Assembly: GCA_964016885.1 (NCBI GenBank)
Contig: OZ024752.1
Coordinates: 35,588,001-35,652,000, forward strand
Direction of reading: 5' to 3'
Source of the DNA: Eledone cirrhosa
Lineage: Eukaryota
DNA length: 64,000 nt
Shown: piece by piece, positions 948 through 1,402 of the stretch
How positions within the stretch are numbered: the first letter of the stretch is position 1
How the letters are laid out: every line of letters starts with the position of its first letter
The notes under the pieces: model-generated
What the model saw: the letters and a program-made list of their open reading frames with translations, nothing else
What the model was told of the DNA's origin: nothing
Databases searched by the model: none
Program-made: the position numbers and the translations under genes

Positions 948-949
<2 letters not shown>

Positions 950-1402
950 GATATTAAATAAATGGAAACTATATTTATAAAACCATATTTATTTCGTTAT
1001 ATATATTTCAGGGATATCATATTAACAATATGTTATGCCTTCTTCAGACAAAATACAATATAAACAGTCTTATAAATAAATAGATACGACATACCTTTCA
1101 ATCACCTTGCATTTGGGAGGTTGATTTGGCAGTCAAATCAACCTCCCAAATGCAAGGTGATTGAAAGGTATGTCGTATCTATTTATTTATAAGACTGTTT
1201 ATATTGTATTTTGTCTGAAGAAGGCATAACATATTGTTAATATGATATCCCTGAAATATATATAACGAAATAAATATGGTTTTATAAATATAGTTTCCAT
1301 TTATTTAATATCATAAATATATTCCAAATACTTGTTGAGTGCTTTTATATCAGTTATAAATATTTACTCGTTGTTAACCCAACAATTTAAATATAACTTT
1401 CC
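948..1402 (+). mobile_element. Family A fold-back hammerhead element (PLE pLTR-like) in (TA)n
   Basis: Perfect 181-bp inverted arms 948-1128 / 1134-1314, unique tail 1315-1402 containing GAGTGCT (1337), and (TA)n on both sides. Confidence 0.85.
1207..1272 (+). ncRNA. Type I hammerhead ribozyme (family A); mirror copy at 990-1055 (-)
   Basis: Stem I TATTTTGT/ACGAAATA; core CTGAAGA; stem II AGG..CATATT-gtt-AATATG..CCT; GAAA; palindromic stem III ATATATAT; AUA cleavage after 1264. Confidence 0.82.

What the first reader, a model, noticed from the sequence alone, without database searches (positions are those of the whole stretch)
948..1402. Fold-back architecture: arms are identical within a copy but differ between copies
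Seen in sequence: 948-1402 and 27919-28382 are the same family and differ at many positions (e.g. CTGAAGA vs CTGAGGA), yet each has perfect 181-bp or 188-bp inverted arms. Both turn at essentially the same sequence (...gatttggcagt), and both inverted arms stop about 88 nt short of the forward end. Families B (22078), I (54347), J, D and E show the same inverted arm + forward arm + tail layout. Established: PLE insertions can carry inverted pLTRs and a 3' extension. Inference: the inverted arm is made anew at each insertion by cDNA snap-back or template switching at a defined point, or is homogenised afterwards. This puts a hammerhead on both strands and makes any read-through transcript a long dsRNA hairpin, a possible ADAR or Dicer substrate.
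Basis: partly seen in the sequence, partly recalled or inferred. Interest (0 to 1): 0.7.

Follow-up and report, generated by a model that had tools for sequence, protein, structure and literature searches.

The report
Twin-primed Penelope retroelement palindromes
These mirror-image stretches are short head-to-head stubs of a Penelope-type jumping gene; the two arms carry the same parent copy's variants yet start at two different fixed points, so they were likely made at insertion by both cut DNA strands copying the element's RNA, not by one copy folding back on itself or by later correction.

Summary
The palindromes are real: exact arms of 182 and 188 bp, same turn point, 87-nt tail. They are the leader end of a 3.75-kb Penelope-like element whose ORF has Hydra-clade motifs, with a minimal hammerhead, inserted in (TA)n. 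This layout is published.

Within-copy identity is real but ordinary. In 46 B-type palindromes arms differ 0.77% against 6.86% between loci, yet the nearest other copy is about as close. Arms share source alleles and then mutate separately, so later homogenisation is not supported.

Snap-back fails as the main route. 62 of 64 joined pairs combine one tail-ended arm with one arm starting 87 nt inside; many pairs are asymmetric and some share no sequence. The turn point is fixed only for a class ending at a likely capped RNA start.

Best model: both nicked strands prime reverse transcription on the same source's RNA, likely one molecule, and the two cDNAs join head to head. The scan reached similar readings for other families in this genome. 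The dsRNA, ADAR and Dicer claim is untested.

The parts
930..949 (.). (TA)n target, left of copy A (overlaps the inner priming site of the inverted arm)
   Evidence: sequence
947..1133 (-). Copy A inverted arm: element positions -273 to -87 (0 = last base of the tail); includes the 5-nt 'spacer', which is element sequence missing from the forward arm
1129..1134 (.). Head-to-head joint at the inferred RNA 5' end; one C:G pair could be a cap-templated base used as 1-nt microhomology (inferred)
1134..1402 (+). Copy A forward arm, -268 to 0; 99.6% identical to the reference element L062
1316..1402 (+). 87-nt tail, the distance between the two arm start sites
1199..1279 (+). Minimal type I hammerhead motif (core at 1215, GAAA at 1253, predicted cut after 1264)
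   Evidence: no Rfam hammerhead hit
983..1063 (-). Mirror hammerhead motif in the inverted arm
1403..1422 (.). (TA)n target, right of copy A
   Evidence: sequence
27919..28107 (-). Copy B inverted arm (-273 to -87), another source lineage of the same family
28108..28382 (+). Copy B forward arm (-272 to 0) with hammerhead core at 28195 (predicted cut after 28244) and tail 28296-28382
63090..63269 (+). Solo arm of the same family ending at the inner start site, in (TA)n
13666..13823 (-). Solo arm of a more distant subfamily ending at the inner start site, in (TA)n
22078..22378 (+). Unrelated family with the same layout: 105-bp exact arms, hammerhead motif, about 89-nt tail; parent not traced
54347..54931 (-). 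Unrelated family with the same layout: about 260-bp arms with one mismatch, about 53-nt tail on the left; parent not traced

Best explanation
The palindromes are insertion stubs of a Penelope-like retrotransposon with Hydra-clade motifs, likely formed when both strands of a cut (TA)n site primed reverse transcription on RNA from one source copy, likely one molecule, one strand at the tail end and the other 87 nt inside. Shown: the two fixed start sites, their one-plus-one pairing, independent 5' ends, shared source alleles, separate later mutation. Inferred: the two antisense cDNAs grow away from their flanks and are joined head to head by 0-5 nt microhomology or short templated inserts. When priming occurs in the leader copy of the pLTR, both cDNAs run off the same likely capped RNA 5' end 273 nt upstream, which gives the short near-symmetric palindromes seen at 948 and 27919. 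The arms are identical because the insertions are young and had one source. The stubs are likely inert.
For: Parent element: inverted stub + pLTR + ORF + pLTR, 3747-nt unit, locus L062; motifs; atlas look-alikes carry RVT_1, GIY-YIG and HTH_animal. All 182 A-type arms end at 0 (104) or near -87 (78). 62 of 64 direct joints are tail-arm + inner-arm; 26 of 26 on contig C1, p=3e-8 against 50%. Inner arm longer upstream in 15 of 64; no overlap in 5 of 64 and, by my reading of the table, in about 20 of 26 further loci. Shared source alleles: 42 both-arm minor alleles and 8 both-arm private against 7 discordant; B-type 0.77% own against 6.86% cross, 0 of 5000 permutations as low. Arms ending at -268..-276 pair with each other, not with long arms (C1: 5, 0, 1, 12; Fisher p=0.0007). 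A G precedes the start in 20 of 37 arms not preceded by T (p=0.007 against 1/3). In vitro, a Poseidon protein nicks and extends both strands, starts at two sites that bound the tail and is predicted to be a dimer (PMC11167929).
Against: No sharp stop of tail arms where the second primer would sit: 12 hits at -76..-78 against 14 at a control site, so the collision expected of one-molecule twin priming is not seen, and overlapping arms need strand displacement (inferred). Shared alleles and start-site coupling also fit two RNAs from one active source. Two loci (L018, L198) have same-type arms with duplicated host flank, as true snap-back predicts. L060 arms differ at two common alleles. About 10 of 38 C1 insertions show only one intact arm (counted by eye). 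The transcription start and cap are inferred from DNA junctions only; in B-type copies the upstream base is C, which makes some joints ambiguous. Pfam and PDB searches of the ORF gave no hits.
Confidence: 0.68

Rival explanations
1. Both strands prime, but on two different RNA molecules made by the same active source copy and held by a protein dimer.
For: Explains shared alleles, overlapping arms without strand displacement, and the lack of a collision peak. Dimer predicted for PAc (PMC11167929).
Against: Two free RNAs would be expected to give tail+tail and inner+inner joints (62 of 64 are mixed) and leader-ended arms paired with long arms (1 of 18 on C1), unless geometry or source type enforces the pairing.
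Confidence: 0.17
2. One cDNA snaps back or switches template at a defined point and copies itself (first reader; self-priming as proposed in PMC3846280).
For: Turn points cluster at one motif (23 and 115 palindromes). Short inserts at joints look like local fold-back priming. L018 and L198 have the snap-back shape.
Against: Each arm usually holds sequence the other lacks; in copy A the forward arm has the tail and the inverted arm has five extra 5' bases. Non-overlapping arms exist. A self-copy would not begin at a second fixed site joined to (TA)n. Rescue needs heavy trimming of one arm.
Confidence: 0.09
3. Arms are kept identical after insertion by gene conversion or hairpin repair.
For: In 32 symmetric A-type pairs single-arm private changes (13 of 10654 sites) were rarer than in tails (8 of 2589; p=0.048) and 3 loci had a private change on both arms.
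Against: The trend reversed in 25 asymmetric pairs. In 51 B-type loci arm and tail private rates were alike (0.35% against 0.42%, p=0.55; misaligned loci included). 46 single-arm against 8 both-arm private changes. Older copies have arms 0-5% apart.
Confidence: 0.04
4. The palindromes are fold-back artefacts of sequencing or assembly.
For: This locus itself was not checked in long reads. L018 and L198 could be such artefacts.
Against: Artefacts would not give a fixed 87-nt offset, asymmetric or non-overlapping arms, or arm-specific mutations. Raw reads of three other runs show (TA)n joined at the inner start site and opposite-strand joints.
Confidence: 0.02

Closest known systems
Hydra clade of C-terminal endonuclease Penelope-like elements (PMC8557442 section 11; Hydra-1_Obim listed in its File S1)
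   Same: RW[K/R], DKT, CxCX5C linker, GIY-YIG-like core without CCHH, CxxC and CxH, hammerhead in the pLTR, (TA)n targets.
   Different: Unit is 3.75 kb (paper: generally under 3 kb), pLTR about 1 kb, RWR instead of RWK. Placement rests on motifs; no tree was built.
PLE insertion unit with inverted 5'-truncated copy and one-sided tail (Adineta Pen2a, PMC3846280; D. virilis Penelope, PMC2377424; PMC8557442 Fig. 2 legend)
   Same: Inverted arm shorter than the forward pLTR, tail on one side, palindromic joint, partial tandems.
   Different: Tail is 87 nt rather than 30-40. The passages read explain the inversion by self-priming and the tail by endonuclease resolution; the data here tie both to paired priming at two sites.
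PAc (Anolis Poseidon) in vitro reaction (PMC11167929)
   Same: Both strands cut and extended, two internal start sites bounding the tail, AT-rich targets, hammerhead upstream of the start sites.
   Different: PAc sites are described as not homologous to the target and lie inside the ORF; here both resemble (TA)n and lie before the first ATG. The parts read do not address inverted arms.
L1 twin priming (recalled; paper not held)
   Same: Two target nicks prime two opposed cDNAs joined by microhomology.
   Different: In L1 (from memory) the second site is variable and the segments hardly overlap. Here it is fixed, the arms mostly overlap, and the two-armed form is the majority.

Membership tests
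Endonuclease-bearing Penelope-like element | Single ORF with RT and GIY-YIG endonuclease | tested here: met
   RT motifs including YRDD and an IIY...YVG core; atlas hits at 0.95-0.98 with RVT_1/GIY-YIG clusters among them. Pfam gave 0 hits, so this rests on motifs and the atlas.
Endonuclease-bearing Penelope-like element | pLTR from partial tandem, adjacent inverted truncated copy, one-sided tail | tested here: met
   L062, L055, L057, L164 tandems; 64 joints
Endonuclease-bearing Penelope-like element | Type I hammerhead motif in the pLTR | tested here: met
   Core conserved with a free N7; 92.5% of cells paired, 3 pairs with two-sided change in 12 related sequences. Fold z-score not significant; no Rfam hit.
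Endonuclease-bearing Penelope-like element | Ribozyme self-cleavage and RT/EN activity | not testable with these tools
   needs bench work
Hydra clade | DKT, CxCX5C, no CCHH in the GIY-YIG core, CxxC and CxH, RWK | tested here: met
   RWR stands for RWK; read from two different copies (P0001, P0002)
Hydra clade | (TA)n insertion preference | tested here: met
   nearly all of 98 tail ends and 72 inner ends continue as TA-type repeat; 5 tail ends run on into the element
Hydra clade | RT phylogeny groups with Hydra elements | not tested
Twin-primed insertion | Two opposed antisense segments, each primed at a target end, joined by microhomology | tested here: met
Twin-primed insertion | One RNA molecule; first cDNA stops at the second primer | tested here: inconclusive
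   shared alleles and coupled ends fit; no collision peak
Non-LTR retrozyme | Head-to-tail tandem of short non-coding hammerhead units | tested here: not met
   copies are head-to-head stubs of a coding element

The most novel reading that the evidence does not exclude
For this Penelope-like family the normal reaction is a coordinated double priming: one protein-RNA complex uses both ends of a cut (TA)n site to start two first-strand cDNAs at fixed points 87 nt apart on one RNA, so that the inverted pLTR, the tail and the junction palindrome of Penelope elements are all one footprint, and no element-primed second strand is needed.
Probability: 0.5. Interest if true: 0.65.

Novelty: new member of a known kind. 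Interest (0 to 1): 0.45.

Why it matters
How Penelope-like elements make their inverted ends and tails is called undefined in PMC8557442. This family gives countable genomic rules (one tail arm plus one inner arm, same source alleles, coupled 5' ends) that link the published in vitro two-strand, two-start reaction to the inverted layout and say which experiment decides it. The palindromes themselves are likely inert by-products; nothing here shows a regulatory RNA.

Tried and rejected
Rfam: no hit at gathering score in the window; only generic hairpin matches below threshold at 900-1450. Pfam and PDB found nothing for the ORF. DNA searches with the tail or inner segment returned nothing because common words are skipped; patterns were used instead. 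No RNA holder listed, so expression, dsRNA, editing and small RNAs were not examined. Collision peak at -76..-78, suggested by three loci, was not confirmed (12 against 14, different constant parts, not normalised). Hammerhead cut site (-138) as the turn point: one arm starts at -136 among those mapped, no pile-up. Laying reads on copy B showed depth through the centre but no read could be shown to span it. One search included flanks and was replaced. One search failed for lack of coordinates and was redone. The twin-priming paper was not held; PMC13000458 passages gave nothing on caps. Literature searches for a two-primer model of PLE inversions listed no such paper; the library lacks most subscription journals, and bioRxiv supplements are closed.

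Full report
Observation. The arms are exact: 947-1128/1134-1315 (182 bp) and 27919-28106/28108-28295 (188 bp), each followed by an 87-nt unpaired tail and set in (TA)n. The two copies differ at 19 of 268 sites plus 2 indels. Below, positions count back from the last base of the tail (0).

Identity. The window lies in a 3.0-Gb genome; earlier scan notes call it an octopod, which I did not test. The element continues far upstream of the turn in other copies. Locus L062 holds an inverted stub, a 1-kb pLTR, an ORF with one frameshift and a second pLTR, with a 3747-nt unit. Open stretches of two other copies show RT motifs and RWR, DKT, CxCX5C, a GIY-YIG-like core without CCHH, CxxC and CxH. These match the Hydra clade description (PMC8557442: passages, section 11 and supplement rows read), which lists an Octopus member. 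Pfam and PDB gave nothing; atlas look-alikes include RVT_1 and GIY-YIG clusters. No tree was built. The arm holds a minimal type I hammerhead motif with compensatory changes across 12 related sequences; relatedness inflates that control and Rfam does not detect it.

The layout is published. An inverted truncated copy next to the pLTR and a one-sided tail are described in PMC8557442, PMC3846280 (passages) and PMC2377424 (passages). PMC3846280 favours self-priming. PMC11167929 (parts 1-2 of 4 read) shows both strands cut and extended and two start sites bounding the tail; 'inverted' occurs once there, for a blocking group. The retrozyme preprint was read only in its first part and adds nothing here.

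Why the arms are identical. Copy A belongs to a young lineage: 452 exact matches of a 26-mer, and its arms equal the median other copy at 0 differences once one flank site is set aside. Copy B has a near-identical relative. Among 46 of 51 B-type palindromes (5 dropped for interrupted or deleted arms), arms differ 0.77% against 6.86% across loci, no permutation of 5000 came near, but the nearest other arm differs by 1.76 sites against 1.28 within a locus. In 40 A-type pairs (simple-repeat zones masked, tandem and duplicate loci skipped) both arms carried a minor allele 42 times and a private one 8 times; 7 sites were discordant for a shared allele and 46 changes were private to one arm. So the arms come from one source lineage and then mutate separately. 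Homogenisation: one weak hint in symmetric A-type pairs (p=0.048), reversed in asymmetric pairs and absent in B-type loci.

How the arms are made. All 182 mapped A-type arms end at 0 or near -87, both next to TA-like RNA sequence that merges with the target. A perfect TA run in the hammerhead loop ends an arm in only 2 of 51 loci, so likeness to TA alone does not set the sites. Of 64 direct joints 62 pair one arm of each kind; part of this set was chosen by a query needing a tail arm, but the complete contig C1 set gives 26 of 26. One exception is a tandem (L007); L018, and L198 in the B-type set, duplicate host flank as well. B-type: 46 of 51 are plain mixed pairs by my reading. The 5' ends are mostly independent: only 10 of 26 C1 pairs are symmetric within 30 nt, the inner arm reaches further upstream in 15 of 64, and arms do not overlap in 5 of 64 and in about 20 of 26 short-tail loci. 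Neither arm can then be a copy of the other. Both are antisense strands attached to a flank, which is what priming from both cut ends would give (inference). A sharp stop at the second primer was looked for and not found.

The turn point. 17 of 59 C1 arms that reach -268 end within -268..-276, against 2 in the next 9 nt (the sample is selected for reaching -268). Junction patterns gave 23 and 115 palindromes (23 and 50 listed) that by eye do not read into the T-run upstream. Such arms pair with each other, not with long arms (p=0.0007). A G precedes the start in 20 of 37 arms not preceded by T, 11 of 13 direct joints land on G (counted by eye), and L104, L109 and L225 show a G that neither template explains. 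I read this as a capped RNA start in the leader, 273 nt from the tail end; copies A and B both fit a one-base C:G join. That RT can copy a cap as C is recalled knowledge, and the idea came from an earlier scan note. It is inferred from DNA only, and sources that make only short transcripts could also explain the coupling.

Artefact. Raw reads of three runs show (TA)n joined at the inner start and opposite-strand joints; the window loci themselves were not confirmed.

Function. A read-through RNA would fold into one long hairpin (-300 kcal/mol) that would mask the hammerhead. No RNA run was listed, so the ADAR and Dicer idea stands untested and is generic to any inverted repeat.

Verdict. Real, known kind of structure, new family member. 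The paired-priming model is my best reading (0.68). I found no paper stating it, while earlier scan notes reached similar readings on other families; these are not independent support.

Noticed in passing
window 256-554 and the 300 bases before the window (L001:1-299/623-921): Another fold-back element of an unrelated family, 300-bp arms 98% alike, centred near window 94.
   Followed up: no
L018 1308-2228; L198 865-2165: Palindromes centred on the element joint that also duplicate 190 to about 450 bp of host flank, with same-type arms: true snap-back, secondary rearrangement or assembly artefact.
   Followed up: partly
L221, L226: Arms that end in (TA)n at the predicted hammerhead cut site: a rare third priming site, or use of the cleaved RNA.
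   Followed up: no
L062:8553 in runs X14-X16: Copy A's lineage allele is almost absent from three reduced-representation runs (5 of 8736 plus-strand reads in X14) though present in X1 contigs; the lineage may be very recent or population-specific, or this may be a library effect.
   Followed up: no
window 22440-22830: Pair of inverted, internally palindromic repeats around (TA)n; similar starts recur beside other insertions (L004 right flank).
   Followed up: no
window about 59932-60142 and 63670-63883: Two copies of another family with short inverted arms, a left-hand tail and different templated-looking joints.
   Followed up: partly
window 2515-2682: 78-bp exact inverted duplication in a different repeat, no TA flanks.
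   Followed up: no
L054 6233-8477; L062 143-3545; L058 5474-7786: Long ORFs of other retroelements near the insertions, one apparently a related Penelope-like family.
   Followed up: no
L154, L156, L171, L178: Three-part insertions with an internal ORF or 3' piece between the two arms, suggesting extra template jumps.
   Followed up: no
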